IMG/VR virus record: IMGVR_UViG_2541047900_000007
DNA from: a virus
Lineage: Duplodnaviria > Heunggongvirae > Uroviricota > Caudoviricetes
Length of the DNA stretch: 33,326 nt
Strand: one strand, 5' to 3'
Shown one piece after another: positions 22,379 through 25,012 of this stretch (its first letter is position 1; each line of letters opens with the position of its first letter). The position numbers were made by a program, and so were the translations under genes. The notes beneath the pieces were generated by a model. It was not told the DNA's origin. It did not search any database and saw only the letters and a program-made list of their open reading frames with translations.

Positions 22379-22855
22379 ATGACGCACACACTGAATCCGG
22401 TCATCACTGTCACTGTGTCCGGTCCTGTGGGCAGCGGTAAAAGTTACGTACTGGCGCGGATAGAAGAGATGGTGAAACAGGAACTCGGAAACAGCGTCAT
22501 TGTCGATGCTGCTGACGTGGAGAATGAGCGCCGTATGAATGGCGAAGATCTGACGACCTGGCAGAAGCCACGGGGTGGCACAGTGATCAGGCTGGAGGAA
22601 TACACGGGACAGGGCCTGTTGTCATACGGCGAGGAGCGTATCTGTCGGACGAATGAGCTGCTGGATGTTATATGCCCCACGGGCCGGCAACCCTGGATAC
22701 TGCCCGATGCACTGCATGCCACCATTGCGGCACTGATGACAGTTTACGATCAGGAGCTGCTCATGAAGGAGTTACGTAAACTCACCGGTCAGCCAACAGA
22801 ATGTTGTTCGTCTCCGAAGTACGGCAAACAGGAAAACGCCCCGGATAATCCTTAA
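22379..22855 (+). CDS. small P-loop NTPase-like protein (Walker A GPVGSGKS), function unknown
   Basis: 158-aa ORF with GAGGAG ribosome-binding site; divergent from the lysis operon and convergent with the repressor-linked cassette. Confidence 0.55.
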   Translation: MTHTLNPVITVTVSGPVGSGKSYVLARIEEMVKQELGNSVIVDAADVENERRMNGEDLTTWQKPRGGTVIRLEEYTGQGLLSYGEERICRTNELLDVICPTGRQPWILPDALHATIAALMTVYDQELLMKELRKLTGQPTECCSSPKYGKQENAPDNP

Positions 22856-22874
22856 GATACCTCCTGAACAGAAA

Positions 22875-22890
22875 CAGCCCTGAAGGGCTG
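22875..22890 (-). terminator. putative intrinsic terminator of the leftward repressor-linked operon
   Basis: GC-rich hairpin CAGCCC-TGAA-GGGCTG three nt downstream of the stop at 22893, followed on the minus strand by TTTCTGTT. Confidence 0.4.
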
Positions 22891-22892
22891 CA

Positions 22893-23480
22893 CTAAAAAA
22901 AGAAGTGTATTATTGCCCAAACAGCTATAACGATGATTCCCAGCCCAAGAGCCGATTCTAACTTATCTTTGGCAGTCATTTTTACTGTTGTAGCGGGCGC
23001 AGGTAAGTCTTGCTGCTGTGGATTTTCTGTTAGTTGTTTACGAGAAGAAACATCGCCCCTGTTAGTTTGCTTCATGTTGATTACAGATGCGTTATGGGCA
23101 TTATCAGCAGCAATTGACTGAAGTTTTACAAAAGTTTTTGAATCTGTTTTAGCCAGAAGTAACCTATTTCCCGTAAACATTGCCTTAAAAGTGATAGTTT
23201 TTTTCGTCTTGTCCGCCGCACCAAGCAAACCTCCAATGACCAACCCTGCACCACCAAAGATTAATCCACCAAGCAAACCTGCGCCTGCCGCCTTACCTAT
23301 ACGGCTTTCCTCTTCACTATCCGCAAGTTCAATCGATAAAAGCTCTTCTTTCAGATTTAATACAATATTTTCAGGAAAGCCTTGTTTTGGTTTTTTGGCA
23401 AACACGATGGTACCGAACCCCATGCTTGCCCACCCTTTAGGAAAACTTCCTGCGATAACCTGAATCCCTGCCATGTTCAT
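22893..23480 (-). CDS. membrane protein with glycine-zipper segment and C-terminal anchor, function unknown
   Basis: GKAAGAGLLGGLIFGGAGLVIGGLLGAA glycine-zipper and C-terminal LGLGIIVIAVWAIIHFFF; ORF-track start is GTG 23483, ATG 23480 or 23474 more likely (AAGGTG upstream). Confidence 0.5.
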   Translation of the reverse strand: MNMAGIQVIAGSFPKGWASMGFGTIVFAKKPKQGFPENIVLNLKEELLSIELADSEEESRIGKAAGAGLLGGLIFGGAGLVIGGLLGAADKTKKTITFKAMFTGNRLLLAKTDSKTFVKLQSIAADNAHNASVINMKQTNRGDVSSRKQLTENPQQQDLPAPATTVKMTAKDKLESALGLGIIVIAVWAIIHFFF

Positions 23481-23564
23481 CACCTTTTACATTAAAATTT
23501 CAGAACGCAGCATGATGCCGCCTTTGTCTTTTTTCTGATCCCATGGTAATTCAGCTGTTATTTT

Positions 23565-24551
23565 CTATTTAAGAATAAAACGGTATTTACTGTCAGGAGT
23601 GCTTTGCTGATCAAGTAGCAGTGAACGACATGGAGCAGTCAAAACCCGAGCATAACTACCATCAGGGCTTATGTTAATGTAACAAACCTTGCCCTTAACA
23701 CTATAATTTTCGGGGACGGATGCCTTTGCTGATACAGTAAATTTAAGGGTATGCCAGCCCGTTTTTTGCTTGTAGCTTGAAACCGAATGGAAATCATCTG
23801 AGTACTTATTTAACCCTGGAAACATGCTGCGCAGTGCGGGGATGGAATCTTCTATTATTTTATCGTTGGTTTTAATGTTAAAAACGCTGGTTTCAGTAGA
23901 AGCTACTGCTTTGGCATTTCCCCATTTACCAGCGAACACAATCATTCCCACGAAAAATATTGCTACAAGAACTAACACTCCCCCCAACACTACTACATGA
24001 GGCTTCCGGCTTCTGGTTGGTACAGTTGCGACTGATTTTGCACCGCTTTCCGATGGAGGTGATAGAGTTTTACTCTCATCACGAATATTCAGCAGATCAT
24101 CAAAATAACCAAACACAGCCTGCAACTGCTCTTTGTCTAGGCCTTTAAGATGGGTTGTACCGAAATGCTTCAGACAGTATCTGTCACGGTCAAGACGATA
24201 CCCAGGGTCAGTAAGCGCCATTATTTTGCTGACCAGAAGATTACAGTCCTTCATATTCTGGATCTGTTGTGCATATCTCTGAAGGATCTCAACCGCACCA
24301 TGATAATCAGCCGCAGTCATTTCATTAACTGTTTTGGTATTAAGTTTCGTGTGGATCGTCATCCATAGCTCGCGCTTACTTTCCCCCAGATCAACCAATT
24401 CATCCATCAATCTGTGTAAATCGCGTTTTTGCAGCAACGAAATTGGTTGCTGGGCCGAAGGAAGTATGTCAGCAGAATAGTTATGAATGGTAACATCACC
24501 GCTGACAACGTTACCCACATCCCCGTTAACTGTTTGCTTCTCTTTACTCAT
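23565..24551 (-). CDS. bitopic membrane protein (cytoplasmic N-domain, one transmembrane helix, C-terminal domain with two Cys), function unknown
   Basis: 328-aa ORF; ATGA overlap with the repressor gene; central helix VVVLGGVLVLVAIFFVGMIVFAG. Confidence 0.55.
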   Translation of the reverse strand: MSKEKQTVNGDVGNVVSGDVTIHNYSADILPSAQQPISLLQKRDLHRLMDELVDLGESKRELWMTIHTKLNTKTVNEMTAADYHGAVEILQRYAQQIQNMKDCNLLVSKIMALTDPGYRLDRDRYCLKHFGTTHLKGLDKEQLQAVFGYFDDLLNIRDESKTLSPPSESGAKSVATVPTRSRKPHVVVLGGVLVLVAIFFVGMIVFAGKWGNAKAVASTETSVFNIKTNDKIIEDSIPALRSMFPGLNKYSDDFHSVSSYKQKTGWHTLKFTVSAKASVPENYSVKGKVCYINISPDGSYARVLTAPCRSLLLDQQSTPDSKYRFILK

Positions 24552-25009
24552 CTTCTCTTGGTATTTTTGTTCATTATTCCACCTGTTCCTATGGTTACGT
24601 TACCTTTGATAACATTCCCCAGAACATCTCCATGAATAACCTGTTCCGCCCGTTCTCTGGAGGAGCCAGTAGTCAAGGCCGACAAAACTGAACCTTTGAC
24701 CTGTAATGGTGCCTGCCGGTAGTGCTGCAGTAACTCCATTTCATCACGTGATAAAGTTATACCTGATGACTCCCCGGTAAGAATGAACTGTACATTGGCC
24801 CCAATTCTTGCAAAGGCTGCAAGTAACTCACCTCCGGGAACAGCAACCCCTCGTTCATATTTCCCCCACATTTCTCTTGAAACGCCACAAAGGGCTGCTA
24901 CTTCAGCCTGCTTGAGTGATAACCGCGAACGCTCAGCTTTGAACCGCGACGCGCAAAGAGAATCAAAATTCACATAAACCTCATTGACAATGAGAACAAT
25001 AGTTCTCAT
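24548..25009 (-). CDS. XRE-family helix-turn-helix repressor (candidate immunity repressor); true start probably internal (GTG near 24973)
   Basis: HTH pattern LKQAEVAALCGVSREMWGKYERG; divergent from Ner-like gene; ORF-track ATG 25009 sits inside the predicted early promoter -10. Confidence 0.65.
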   Translation of the reverse strand: MRTIVLIVNEVYVNFDSLCASRFKAERSRLSLKQAEVAALCGVSREMWGKYERGVAVPGGELLAAFARIGANVQFILTGESSGITLSRDEMELLQHYRQAPLQVKGSVLSALTTGSSRERAEQVIHGDVLGNVIKGNVTIGTGGIMNKNTKRR

Positions 25010-25012
25010 AAT
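24984..25012 (+). promoter_or_regulatory. candidate early promoter TTGACA-N17-CATAAT with palindromic operator ATGAGAAC-aata-GTTCTCAT in the spacer
   Basis: Read directly: -35 at 24984-24989, inverted repeat 24990-25009, -10 at 25007-25012; about 47 nt upstream of the Ner-like ATG with AAGGAG ribosome-binding site. Confidence 0.5.

What the first reader, a model, noticed from the sequence alone, without database searches (positions are those of the whole stretch)
24480..24660. A 15-aa Gly/Val-rich motif is shared by the repressor C-terminus and the N-terminus of the adjacent membrane protein
The repressor ends ...HGDVLGNVIKGNVTIGTGG and the next protein begins MSKEKQTVNGDVGNVVSGDVTIHNY: both carry GDV-GNV-x-x-G-x-VTI. 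The underlying DNA is similar but not identical, so this is a diverged duplication straddling the gene junction. It could be a shared interaction or oligomerisation tag linking the regulator to the membrane protein, or a remnant of gene fusion or fission.
Basis: seen in the sequence. Interest (0 to 1): 0.5.

Follow-up and report, generated by a model that had tools for sequence, protein, structure and literature searches.

The report
Repressor and membrane partner share tag
In a Mu-like prophage, the lysogeny repressor ends with the same ~20-residue Gly/Asn/Val-rich strand motif that starts the membrane protein encoded right after it, and across dozens of related phages the two copies change together, which suggests a self-recognising tag, resembling amyloid-signalling motifs, that couples the repressor to a membrane-anchored partner.

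Summary
Repressor residues 120-140 (RAEQVIHGDVLGNVIKGNVTI) match partner residues 3-22 (KEKQTVNGDV-GNVVSGDVTI). One of 2000 shuffles scores as high, and the window holds no third copy.

It is not a recent DNA duplication: nucleotide identity is 60%, and 7 of 11 identical residues use different codons. The motif is the best-conserved segment of both proteins.

In 20 of 70 non-redundant related loci, the repressor tail and the downstream protein's head carry the same motif, although the motif differs between phages (NRVAGRDY, GQFxxxxIINxx, GVVQIGSVGG and others). No cognate-versus-shuffled permutation out of 20000 matched the observed score.

The partner is N-in, with a cytoplasmic Flk/ORF6C-like helical domain, one TM helix and a periplasmic domain. 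Natural single-chain proteins exist as HTH–motif–ORF6C fusions.

Best reading: a homotypic beta-strand association tag holds together a split repressor, made of a DNA-binding half and a membrane-anchored regulatory half. The gene layout, motif length and N/G/Q/V/I-rich composition are those used to define amyloid-signalling motif pairs (HET-s/NWD2, BASS, Bab/Agp). The protein families are different, and amyloid behaviour is untested.

I found no paper describing this. It is a new variant of a known kind, and direct binding is still unproven.

The parts
24548..25009 (-). XRE-type HTH repressor of the Mu-like prophage (153-aa ORF). The real start is probably the GTG at 24973, giving 141 aa.
   Evidence: Pfam HTH_31 scores 30.5 bits and HTH_3 23 bits, both at or above cutoff. 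It also hits NCBIfam RstR-like and PHROG repressor families. It is divergent from the ner-like/DUF3102/transposase early operon. Most homologues start at MNFDSL.
24590..24652 (-). Repressor copy of the motif, residues 120-140: RAEQVIHGDVLGNVIKGNVTI.
   Evidence: Alignment and shuffles. It is the most conserved segment of the repressor family (0.88, against 0.61 for the HTH) and is shared by three different HTH types. AF2 gives a low-confidence beta-hairpin at E120-126/E129-135.
24551..24589 (-). Basic C-terminal end after the motif (GTGGIMNKNTKRR).
   Evidence: Sequence. 19 of 20 echo-type repressors have at least 2 K/R in their last 6 residues, against 26 of 50 others. A gatekeeper or capping role is inferred, not tested.
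24548..24551 (-). ATGA overlap of the repressor stop and the partner start (translational coupling, one operon).
   Evidence: RefSeq calls the same two CDS.
23565..24551 (-). Partner gene: a 328-aa bitopic membrane protein (phrog_10002).
   Evidence: Its 24 homologues are all from Enterobacterales prophage-like contexts.
24486..24545 (-). Partner copy of the motif, residues 3-22: KEKQTVNGDVGNVVSGDVTI.
   Evidence: Residues G10, G13, N14, V15, V16, S17, G18, V20 and I22 are invariant in 18 homologues down to 44% identity. This is the most conserved segment of the protein (0.90). In the AF2 monomer, residues 1-30 have pLDDT below 50 and no secondary structure.
24072..24446 (-). Cytoplasmic helical domain, residues 36-160 (Flk_N / ORF6C-like plus a GemA-N-like segment).
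23931..23996 (-). Single transmembrane helix, residues 186-207. The N-terminus is cytoplasmic (RSRK precedes the helix).
   Evidence: Hydropathy 3.05; AF2 helix 189-207.
23568..23891 (-). Periplasmic alpha/beta domain, residues 221-328, with two invariant cysteines (C290, C308).
   Evidence: AF2 pLDDT above 90. Invariant columns. No significant structural neighbour.
24984..25012 (+). Early promoter-like site TTGACA-17-CATAAT, with the perfect palindrome ATGAGAAC-aata-GTTCTCAT (24990-25009) in its spacer: a candidate operator.
   Evidence: That this is the repressor's operator is inferred.
22874..23483 (-). Third gene of the same operon (196 aa, glycine-zipper plus C-terminal TM, phrog_12025), followed by a terminator-like hairpin (22874-22891).
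   Evidence: This gene is not conserved next to the pair in other loci, so it is probably not part of the tag system.

Best explanation
The shared ~20-residue motif is a homotypic, beta-strand-forming association tag. It joins the prophage's DNA-binding repressor (HTH-linker-motif-basic end) to the product of the next, translationally coupled gene. That partner has the matching motif at its cytoplasmic N-terminus, followed by a Flk/ORF6C-like helical domain, a TM anchor and a periplasmic domain.

Together they behave as a split version of single-chain HTH-motif-ORF6C repressor-like proteins. The gene was broken at a self-associating element, each half kept a copy, and the copies pair in mixed oligomers.

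Shown here: the motif is real, it sits at the two termini, it is the most constrained part of both proteins, its identity changes from phage to phage but stays matched within a phage, and fused forms exist.

Inferred: the two copies bind each other. The membrane partner would then recruit, sequester or modulate the repressor, possibly passing an envelope signal sensed by the periplasmic domain to the lysis-lysogeny switch. The variety of motif types would keep co-resident prophages insulated from one another. Whether the assembly is a small beta-zipper oligomer or a templated cross-beta (amyloid-like) polymer is open.
For: In-window significance and uniqueness. The similarity is at protein level, not DNA level. 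The motif is the most conserved segment in both families, and it stays the same while the HTH domain is exchanged.

Co-variation was tested on 71 non-redundant repressor/downstream pairs from genomes, viral contigs and metagenomes. The cognate mean score is 31.5 against 20.5 for non-cognate pairs, 19 cognate heads are the best of all heads, and 0 of 20000 permutations reach the observed sum. Twenty clear echo pairs span more than 10 motif types. Examples are SISVSGKGNRVAGRDFNENKK | STGGQNRVAGRDFNENK, QSFAGDVHGGQFSTGTINNY | QQFLSAIHGGQFGQVINNY, and QHNTGSGVVQIGSVGGNAG | QHNGGERSIQIGNVTGNVI.

Echo segments have a median length of 19.5 aa. They end a median of 6.5 aa from the repressor C-terminus and start a median of 5.5 aa into the partner. 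They are enriched in N (2.9x), H, G, Q, I and V, and depleted in L, P, C and W.

Rosetta-stone fusions support a functional link: phrog_17822, P0171 with Pfam HTH_3 + ORF6C, and 16 of 146 top representatives. 14 of 20 echo partners have TM anchors. The partner's topology places its motif in the cytoplasm. 15 of 23 echo loci share the Mu-like early region. A second, helical kind of tail/head echo exists in other loci, matching 4 of 8 heads against 0 of 89 background heads, so mimicry of the repressor end by the partner start is a general rule.
Against: There is no direct evidence of binding. No multimer prediction could be run, and the AF2 monomers give the motifs low confidence. Fine-scale co-variation within one motif type is weak (P about 0.04, 9 pairs). 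Tail and head are about 100 bp apart, so they are inherited together. Repeated fission-with-duplication events, plus independent constraint on each copy (each protein self-oligomerising), could mimic co-evolution. Most related loci (50 of 70) show no echo. The biological output (induction, immunity or exclusion) is unknown.
Confidence: 0.62

Rival explanations
1. Amyloid signalling proper with a cell-death output, as in Bab/Agp or HET-S/NWD2. The repressor and partner would form a prophage-encoded abortive-infection or exclusion device, in which templated cross-beta assembly activates the membrane protein as a membrane-damaging effector.
For: The layout matches the rule used to define BASS/FASS pairs: C-terminus of the upstream product equals N-terminus of the downstream product, in collinear, overlapping genes. 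Composition and length are typical. Some related pairs carry a G-phi-Q-phi-G core like RHIM/BASS3. Many partners are small proteins with 1-2 TM segments. An amyloid Abi system exists in E. coli prophage hotspots. The position downstream of the repressor is the classical site of exclusion genes (own knowledge: lambda rexAB).
Against: There is no NLR/STAND, TPR-PIN, Bell/HeLo/Bab-like domain and no PADLOC hit for the partner. No Pfam amyloid-motif family matches. The motif-bearing 'effector' position is occupied by a DNA-binding repressor. Fused soluble HTH-motif-ORF6C forms and soluble partners exist, which fits a regulatory complex better than a pore-former. The partner's closest characterised homologue, Flk, is a regulatory membrane-anchored protein.
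Confidence: 0.15
2. A neutral or nearly neutral scar. The echo is left over from a tandem duplication or gene fission at the junction and has no present role in linking the two proteins. Each copy, if constrained at all, serves only its own protein (for example self-oligomerisation).
For: Fused single-chain forms exist, so fission or fusion did occur. Echoes occur with both beta-type and helical junction elements, as expected if any junction element gets duplicated. Within-type co-variation is weak.
Against: The two copies are the most conserved segments of their proteins, while synonymous sites have diverged (60% nt identity). The echo persists in more than 10 motif types that can no longer be aligned with each other. 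Two co-translated proteins carrying the same self-associating element would cross-associate unless selected not to, yet similarity is retained.
Confidence: 0.12
3. Both motifs bind a common third party (a host protease, chaperone, membrane component, or another phage protein) rather than each other. One example would be a shared degron giving coordinated turnover.
For: Mu repressor activity is controlled through its C-terminal tail and ClpXP (own knowledge). Both motifs sit at free termini, are low-confidence in AF2 and are flanked by charged residues.
Against: Motif types differ radically between phages of the same host group (Enterobacterales carry at least three types) but match within each phage. 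A conserved host target would hold the motif constant. No third copy or obvious third partner exists in the window.
Confidence: 0.07
4. Chance resemblance of two low-complexity Gly/Val-rich stretches.
For: Short, compositionally biased segments can align by chance. One of 2000 shuffles reached the score.
Against: The pattern is replicated in 20 independent pairs with different motifs, and 0 of 20000 permutations match. The positions are specifically terminal. Both copies are strongly conserved.
Confidence: 0.01

Closest known systems
Amyloid signalling motif pairs: fungal HET-S/NWD2, bacterial BASS1-10 (Bell/NLR), E. coli Bab/Agp BASS11 (bioRxiv 10.1101/2020.01.06.895854; 10.1101/2024.11.07.622273)
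   Same: A short (~20 aa) motif sits at the C-terminus of one protein and the N-terminus of the protein encoded by the adjacent, collinear, often overlapping gene. The motif is N/G/Q/V/I-rich, varies between systems and matches within a pair. It lies in a flexible region outside the folded domains. Some related repressor pairs have a RHIM/BASS3-like G-phi-Q-phi-G core.
   Different: The carriers here are a phage lysogeny repressor (HTH) and an Flk/ORF6C-like membrane-anchored protein, not a cell-death effector and an NLR/TPR sensor. There is no sequence match to known motif families. Fused single-chain forms exist. Amyloid or prion behaviour is untested. The likely output is regulation of lysogeny rather than cell death.
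Flk (Fluke/RflH), flagellar type III secretion switch regulator of Salmonella/E. coli (PMC13344023)
   Same: The partner's cytoplasmic domain is homologous to the N-terminal domain of Flk (NF007987, E 2.9e-12; Pfam Flk_N). Both are cytoplasm-facing proteins held at the inner membrane by a TM helix near the C-terminus, and Flk acts by binding another protein (FlhA_C).
   Different: The score is far below the equivalog cutoff. The context is a prophage, not the chromosomal flk locus. The window protein has an extra ~110-aa periplasmic domain and the N-terminal motif. No flagellar link is known.
Single-chain HTH-motif-ORF6C proteins (phrog_17822; e.g. P0171) and ORF6C-domain phage regulators/antirepressors (Pfam PF10552)
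   Same: They have the same HTH type, the same kind of G/N-rich motif and the same helical domain, but in one polypeptide. ORF6C is a module of phage regulatory and antirepressor-type proteins.
   Different: In the window the protein is split into two genes, each half carries a copy of the motif, and the second half is membrane-anchored. The window partner itself does not reach the ORF6C Pfam threshold; the link runs through aligned relatives.
Repressor inactivation by sequestration or aggregation: antirepressor Qtip of vibriophage VP882 (bioRxiv 10.1101/2019.12.16.877910, title seen; mechanism from own knowledge), and membrane anti-sigma/sigma pairs (own knowledge)
   Same: A small partner protein controls a transcription factor by physically capturing it. 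Anti-sigma genes are co-transcribed with their target and are membrane-anchored, with an extracytoplasmic sensor domain.
   Different: There is no sequence relationship. In those systems the partner does not carry a copy of its target's own terminal motif.
Phage Mu repressor c and its regulatory C-terminal tail (own knowledge)
   Same: It is the repressor of a transposable phage, divergent from ner and the transposase, with no LexA-type cleavage domain, and its C-terminal tail governs its activity and stability.
   Different: Mu c has a different DNA-binding fold and tail, and Mu has no downstream partner gene with a matching head.

Membership tests
Amyloid signalling motif pair (FASS/BASS) | The two motif-bearing proteins are encoded by adjacent, collinear genes with a very short or negative spacer. 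| tested here: met
   There is a 4-nt ATGA overlap. In related loci the offset is -1 to +38 nt. The criterion is as stated.
Amyloid signalling motif pair (FASS/BASS) | The motif lies at the C-terminus of the upstream product and the N-terminus of the downstream product, with at least 15 conserved residues. | tested here: met
   Repressor 120-140 of 153 aligns with partner 3-22. The median echo is 19.5 aa, ends 6.5 aa from the C-terminus and starts 5.5 aa from the N-terminus.
Amyloid signalling motif pair (FASS/BASS) | N/Q/G plus beta-branched hydrophobic composition, with few prolines. | tested here: met
   Enrichment is N 2.9x, G 2.2x, Q 2.0x, I and V 1.4-1.5x. Depletion is L 0.14x and P 0.22x.
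Amyloid signalling motif pair (FASS/BASS) | Predicted extended (beta) conformation outside the globular domains. | tested here: inconclusive
   The repressor tail is modelled as a beta-hairpin, but at pLDDT about 36. The partner's residues 1-30 have no secondary structure and pLDDT below 50.
Amyloid signalling motif pair (FASS/BASS) | Sequence match to a described motif family (HET-s, RHIM, PP, sigma, BASS). | tested here: not met
   No Pfam hit for tails or heads even at E up to 10. BASS profiles were not available. Only a G-phi-Q-phi-G core resemblance was seen, in L035/L094/L102/L121.
Amyloid signalling motif pair (FASS/BASS) | The carriers are an immune sensor (NLR/STAND, TPR-PIN) and a cell-death effector (HeLo/Bell/Bab, TIR and others). 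| tested here: not met
   The carriers are an HTH repressor and an Flk/ORF6C-like membrane protein. The partner has no PADLOC hit.
Amyloid signalling motif pair (FASS/BASS) | The peptides form amyloid fibrils, and one motif templates the other (prion-like foci). | not testable with these tools
   This needs ThT/EM/ssNMR and GFP-foci assays, as done.
Flk / Flk_N (PF27202, NF007987) | Homology of the cytoplasmic N-terminal domain. | tested here: met
   NF007987 matches residues 19-147 at E 2.9e-12 and 46.6 bits. The precomputed PF27202 hit is weak.
Flk / Flk_N (PF27202, NF007987) | Full-length equivalence to Flk (curated cutoff 353 bits) and a role in the flagellar export switch. | tested here: not met
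   The score is 46.6 bits against a cutoff of 353. The gene is in a prophage operon behind a repressor.
ORF6C domain (PF10552) | A Pfam hit above the gathering score. | tested here: inconclusive
   The window protein has no hit. Aligned relatives do: the L038-type scores 26.4 bits against a cutoff of 22, and the precomputed PF10552 is on P0132, P0171 and P0182. A joint profile finds both groups.
Transposable-phage (Mu-like) lysogeny repressor, XRE type | An HTH DNA-binding domain, divergent from the ner/transposase early operon, with an operator-like palindrome in the early promoter. | tested here: met
   HTH_31 and HTH_3 score at or above cutoff. Gene order. Promoter with an 11/12 match and an 8+8 palindrome. 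Operator function is inferred.
LexA/CI-type self-cleaving repressor | A C-terminal S24 peptidase domain. | tested here: not met
   No Peptidase_S24 hit. Only a few distant homologues carry PF00717.

The most novel reading that the evidence does not exclude
A prion-like (cross-beta templating) switch controls lysogeny. The membrane-anchored partner, on an envelope signal sensed by its periplasmic domain, would cluster its N-terminal motifs and nucleate an amyloid-type assembly. That assembly would recruit the matching tail of the repressor and pull it off the operator in an all-or-none, self-propagating way. The many motif types would act as private channels that keep co-resident Mu-like prophages from cross-inducing. 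This would extend amyloid signalling from immune cell death to a viral lysis-lysogeny decision.
Probability: 0.18. Interest if true: 0.9.

Novelty: new variant of a known kind. Interest (0 to 1): 0.7.

Why it matters
How Mu-like (transposable) prophages with non-cleavable XRE repressors sense when to induce is poorly understood. A matched, phage-specific tag that ties the repressor to a co-translated membrane protein with a periplasmic domain gives a concrete, testable route from the cell envelope to the lysogeny switch.

It also shows that the 'same motif at the end of one protein and the start of its neighbour' rule, so far tied to amyloid-based immune cell-death systems, operates in a different setting: transcriptional repressors of phages in Proteobacteria. 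Natural fused forms show how such pairs can arise by gene fission at a self-associating element.

The set of at least 10 orthogonal motif pairs could also serve as a toolkit of short, specific protein-association tags. The homology of the partner's domain to Flk hints that this flagellar regulator may derive from, or share ancestry with, a phage module.

Tried and rejected
- Pfam, PADLOC and NCBIfam scans for a known amyloid motif, defence system or named family covering the motif found nothing.
- A recent DNA duplication or gene conversion is rejected: nucleotide identity is 60% and synonymous sites have diverged.
- A third motif copy, such as a separate antirepressor in the prophage, was searched for and none exists in the window.
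- An RNA or recoding explanation (frameshift fusing the two ORFs) was considered and rejected. The similarity is at protein level, the repeats are direct, and gene spacing varies among related loci.
- The within-type co-variation test (NRVAGRDY type, 9 pairs) was only weakly positive, P about 0.04.
- tblastn of the partner against isolated phage genomes found only 4 partial, low-identity matches, so no characterised phage carries this protein.
- Literature searches for amyloid, BASS or prion-like motifs together with phage repressors, for ORF6C with antirepressors, and for BcepMu-type repressors found no description of this pairing.
- One apparent echo pair (L039) was discarded as an artefact of a repeated or out-of-frame stretch.
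- A complex prediction of the two proteins could not be run, because the structure tool takes single chains only.
Full report
**What is in the window.** Positions 22.8-25.0 kb on the minus strand hold a three-gene operon. The first gene is an XRE-type HTH protein (24548..25009, 153-aa ORF). The second is a 328-aa protein (23565..24551) whose ATG overlaps the first gene's TGA (ATGA). The third is a 196-aa protein (22893..23483), followed by a terminator-like hairpin.

Divergently, on the plus strand, lie a ner-like gene, a second HTH gene, a DUF3102 gene, a DDE (rve) transposase and an ExeA-like gene. Gam, gp16/GemA-like and Mor-family genes lie further on. Lysis and myovirus structural genes fill the other arm. 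This is a Mu-like (BcepMu-type) transposable prophage of E. coli. The 1.9-kb stretch is 100% identical in about 100 complete E. coli genomes, and the window differs from the IAI39 copy by scattered SNPs from about 6 kb onward.

The HTH protein is taken to be the lysogeny repressor, for three reasons:
- It hits Pfam HTH_31 and HTH_3 at or above threshold, plus repressor families in PHROGs and NCBIfam.
- It faces the early operon.
- An early promoter-like site (TTGACA-17-CATAAT, 24984-25012) carries a perfect 8+8 palindrome in its spacer.

It has no S24 peptidase domain.

**Check of the observation.** The best local alignment between the two whole proteins is repressor 120-140 RAEQVIHGDVLGNVIKGNVTI against partner 3-22 KEKQTVNGDV-GNVVSGDVTI. 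It scores 55, the shuffle mean is 30 +/- 4.4, and 1 of 2000 shuffles reaches it. Of 617 six-frame segments in the window, each motif's best non-self match is the other motif (53/54), and the next best scores 33. At the DNA level the two stretches are 60% identical, and 7 of the 11 identical residues use different codons. This is therefore an old similarity maintained at protein level, not a recent duplication or gene conversion.

**Conservation.** In 18 partner homologues, down to 44% identity, the N-terminal motif is the most conserved part of the protein. The mean fraction of the commonest residue is 0.90, against 0.81 for the helical domain, 0.70 for the periplasmic domain and 0.4-0.6 for linkers and the TM segment. 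G10, G13, N14, V15, V16, S17, G18, V20 and I22 are invariant.

In 15 repressors with this tail, the motif scores 0.88 against 0.61 for the HTH domain. Three clearly different HTH domains carry the same tail.

Repressor homologues have several unrelated tail types. I fetched 184 related loci from genomes, viral contigs and metagenomes and extracted, by a fixed rule, the repressor ORF and the ORF starting just after it. The downstream protein's head mirrors the repressor's tail, type by type:

| Locus | Repressor tail | Partner head |
|---|---|---|
| Izhakiella (L016) | SISVSGKGNRVAGRDFNENKK | STGGQNRVAGRDFNENK |
| L086 | KDVKIGGKGHRFALGDYHEN | RKIEITGQEHRIALGDYYEH |
| Pectobacterium (L007) | QIFNGDISGQFAGNQIIN | QEFNGTAQGQFSSRDIIN |
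| L076 | KQIFNGNIDGQVSAENIYNIG | EQHFNHTVGQVAANNIYNIY |
| L106 | QSFAGDVHGGQFSTGTINNY | QQFLSAIHGGQFGQVINNY |
| L094 | QHNTGSGVVQIGSVGGNAG | QHNGGERSIQIGNVTGNVI |
| L169 | KNAAGRDINNY | RNLAGRDINNY |

On 71 pairs made non-redundant at 60% identity, cognate tail/head scores average 31.5 against 20.5 for non-cognate pairs (99th percentile 43). 19 tails have their own head as the best of all 71, and no permutation out of 20000 reaches the observed sum. One pair (L039) is an artefact, and 20 pairs are clear echoes.

Within a single type (NRVAGRDY, 9 pairs) co-variation is only weakly significant, at P about 0.04. The strong signal is therefore between types.

Echo segments have a median length of 19.5 aa. 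They end a median of 6.5 aa from the repressor's C-terminus and begin a median of 5.5 aa into the partner. They are enriched in N, H, G, Q, I and V and strongly depleted in L, P, C and W. 19 of 20 echo repressors end in a K/R-rich stub, against 26 of 50 others. 15 of 23 echo loci have the same Mu-like early region upstream, and others have larger divergent transposase-sized ORFs.

**What the partner is.** AF2, using an 18-sequence alignment, gives the following:
- residues 1-30: unstructured, pLDDT below 50
- residues 35-160: a confident all-helical domain, pLDDT above 90
- a low-confidence linker
- residues 189-207: a TM helix
- residues 221-328: a confident alpha/beta domain

Basic residues precede the TM helix, and the C-terminal domain has two invariant cysteines. 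The topology is therefore N-in/C-out, and the motif faces the cytoplasm where the repressor is.

Partners in other loci differ in their middle part: an Flk/ORF6C-like domain, a zinc ribbon, or other domains. All keep the matching head, and 14 of 20 have one or two TM segments. The partner has no PADLOC hit.

**Fused forms.** PHROG family 17822 matches the repressor's HTH with its positions 10-88 and an ORF6C-type partner with its positions 107-264. P0171 (Pfam HTH_3 + ORF6C) reads HTH - VVSINRSTNVIGIVNGGTVNQIKT - ORF6C/GemA-like in one chain. A profile of the partner domain finds 1053 cluster representatives in 1.84 billion proteins. Of the 146 newly returned proteins among the 150 best hits, 16 carry the repressor-type HTH at the N-terminus, followed by one G/N-rich motif (for example ...NIVGNNNNVAGRDIFIN...) and the helical domain. 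The two-gene arrangement is thus a split form of a one-gene architecture, or the reverse, with the junction element present on both halves.

A second kind of echo supports this. Repressors ending in a helix (...NVVELIRRVA) are followed by partners that begin with a similar helix (KKQKLVSLVRE...). A strict pattern matches 4 of 8 such heads and 0 of 89 background heads.

**Interpretation.** The pattern is hypervariable between phages, matched within a phage, terminal, under the strongest constraint in both proteins, and replaceable by a covalent link. That is what is expected of a self-recognising association element. The composition points to beta-strand pairing (V/I/N/G/Q-rich, L- and P-poor), and AF2 draws the repressor tail as a hairpin, though at low confidence.

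I therefore conclude, at about 0.6 confidence, that the tail and head pair with each other and assemble a repressor-partner complex at the inner membrane. The partner would be the regulatory half of a split repressor. The variety of motifs would insulate related prophages from one another. What the complex does is inferred, not shown: sequestration and induction on an envelope signal, stabilisation of immunity, or control of an exclusion function.

**Comparison with known systems.** The gene layout and motif properties are those used to discover amyloid signalling motifs: a C-terminal motif on one protein, an N-terminal motif on the product of the adjacent collinear and often overlapping gene, at least 15 residues, N/Q/G-rich. 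An experimentally proven example, Bab/Agp, exists in E. coli prophage defence islands. Four related repressor pairs even carry a G-phi-Q-phi-G core like RHIM/BASS3.

Membership is not established, however. No known motif family matches. The carrier domains are a repressor and an Flk/ORF6C-like protein rather than a cell-death effector and an NLR-type sensor. Fibril formation cannot be tested here. The helical echoes show that tail/head mimicry in this family is broader than amyloid-type motifs.

Rival readings are set out with their evidence in the rivals section: an Abi-type amyloid device, a neutral fission scar, a shared third-party ligand, and chance.

**Novelty.** Searches of the held literature for amyloid, BASS or prion-like motifs with phage repressors, for ORF6C with antirepressors, and for BcepMu-type repressors found no description of this pairing. 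This includes the BASS papers, the Bab/Agp preprint and a 2026 review. I rate it a new variant of a known kind: the matched-terminal-motif principle applied to a phage lysogeny repressor and a membrane partner.

Noticed in passing
window 24971-25012: The annotated repressor start (ATG 25009, MRTIVLIV...) lies inside the early promoter-like site TTGACA-17-CATAAT (24984-25012) and its perfect palindrome ATGAGAAC-aata-GTTCTCAT (24990-25009). The real start is probably the GTG at 24973, preceded by GAGG, which gives a 141-aa protein starting MNFDSL like most homologues.
   Followed up: partly
window 22874-23483 (-): The third gene of the repressor operon encodes a 196-aa protein with a glycine-zipper stretch (GKAAGAGLLGGLIFGGAGLVIGGLLGAA) and a C-terminal TM segment (phrog_12025, no known function). 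A terminator-like hairpin follows it. It is not conserved next to the pair in a Serratia relative (L005).
   Followed up: partly
window 22379-22855 (+): A convergent 158-aa ORF with a P-loop (GPVGSGKS) is annotated 'ABC transporter ATPase' in RefSeq but is far too short for one. It has only faint PADLOC (SngB, mad8) and NCBIfam hits. It may be a small NTPase moron between the immunity operon and the lysis genes.
   Followed up: no
loci L038, L120, L171, L174 (also L041, L115): There is a second, helical kind of echo. Repressors ending ...NVVELIRRVA / ...RIIRLVRAA are followed by soluble ORF6C-type partners that begin MEDKKQKLVSLVREA / ...KSKIVRLVREA. These partners then carry a G-rich motif (VRIDGSHNIVGDGNTVIH) that the repressor lacks.
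   Followed up: partly
loci L035, L094/L149, L102, L121: The tail/head pairs in these Mu-like loci have a G-phi-Q-phi-G core (GAIQIGSIG|GAVQMGNVAG, GVVQIGSVGG|RSIQIGNVTG, GGVQVGYVGG|GGVQVGKVDG, PTIQVGASVTG|GVVQVGGSVHG). This is the signature described for RHIM, fungal PP and BASS3 amyloid motifs.
   Followed up: partly
loci L010-L014 (Lonsdalea), L020-L026 (Pseudomonas): Repressors with a different helical C-terminal domain (...LKLVINH/R) are followed by ~160-177-aa proteins that start MDRRDNELQEL / MRSDDELVAKL. These carry an internal G-rich strand motif (ITISVGGDNPGSIHVGSVVNIN; LIIKIKGDHGNINLG), sometimes a zinc ribbon, and TM segments. Whether their heads echo the repressor ends is unclear.
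   Followed up: no
proteins P0045, P0046, P0049, P0052, P0053, P0056 against the window repressor (alignment A5): Repressors with a clearly different HTH domain (MQLSIGERLKEERERLGLSQLAFGELGGVKK...) carry the same linker and tail as the window repressor. The immunity (DNA-binding) module and the tail module recombine independently.
   Followed up: partly
partner residues 19-147 (window 24111-24497): The partner's domain is significantly similar to the chromosomal flagellar regulator Flk (E 2.9e-12). This suggests that Flk and this prophage protein family share ancestry, and raises the possibility that Flk derives from a phage module.
   Followed up: partly
NC_011750.1 2002172-2035497 (L191) against the window: The IAI39 copy of this prophage has three genes flagged as pseudogenes with internal stops: DUF3486 (terminase small subunit-like), a small tail gene, and a GPW/gp25 baseplate gene. 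The window is a close but not identical relative, with SNPs throughout and no ungapped correspondence in the first ~6 kb. I did not check whether the window copy is intact.
   Followed up: no
window 23565-24551, residue 306: The window's partner differs from the cluster representative P0001 at one residue (VLTAPCRS against VLPAPCRS), in the periplasmic domain next to the conserved cysteine C308.
   Followed up: no
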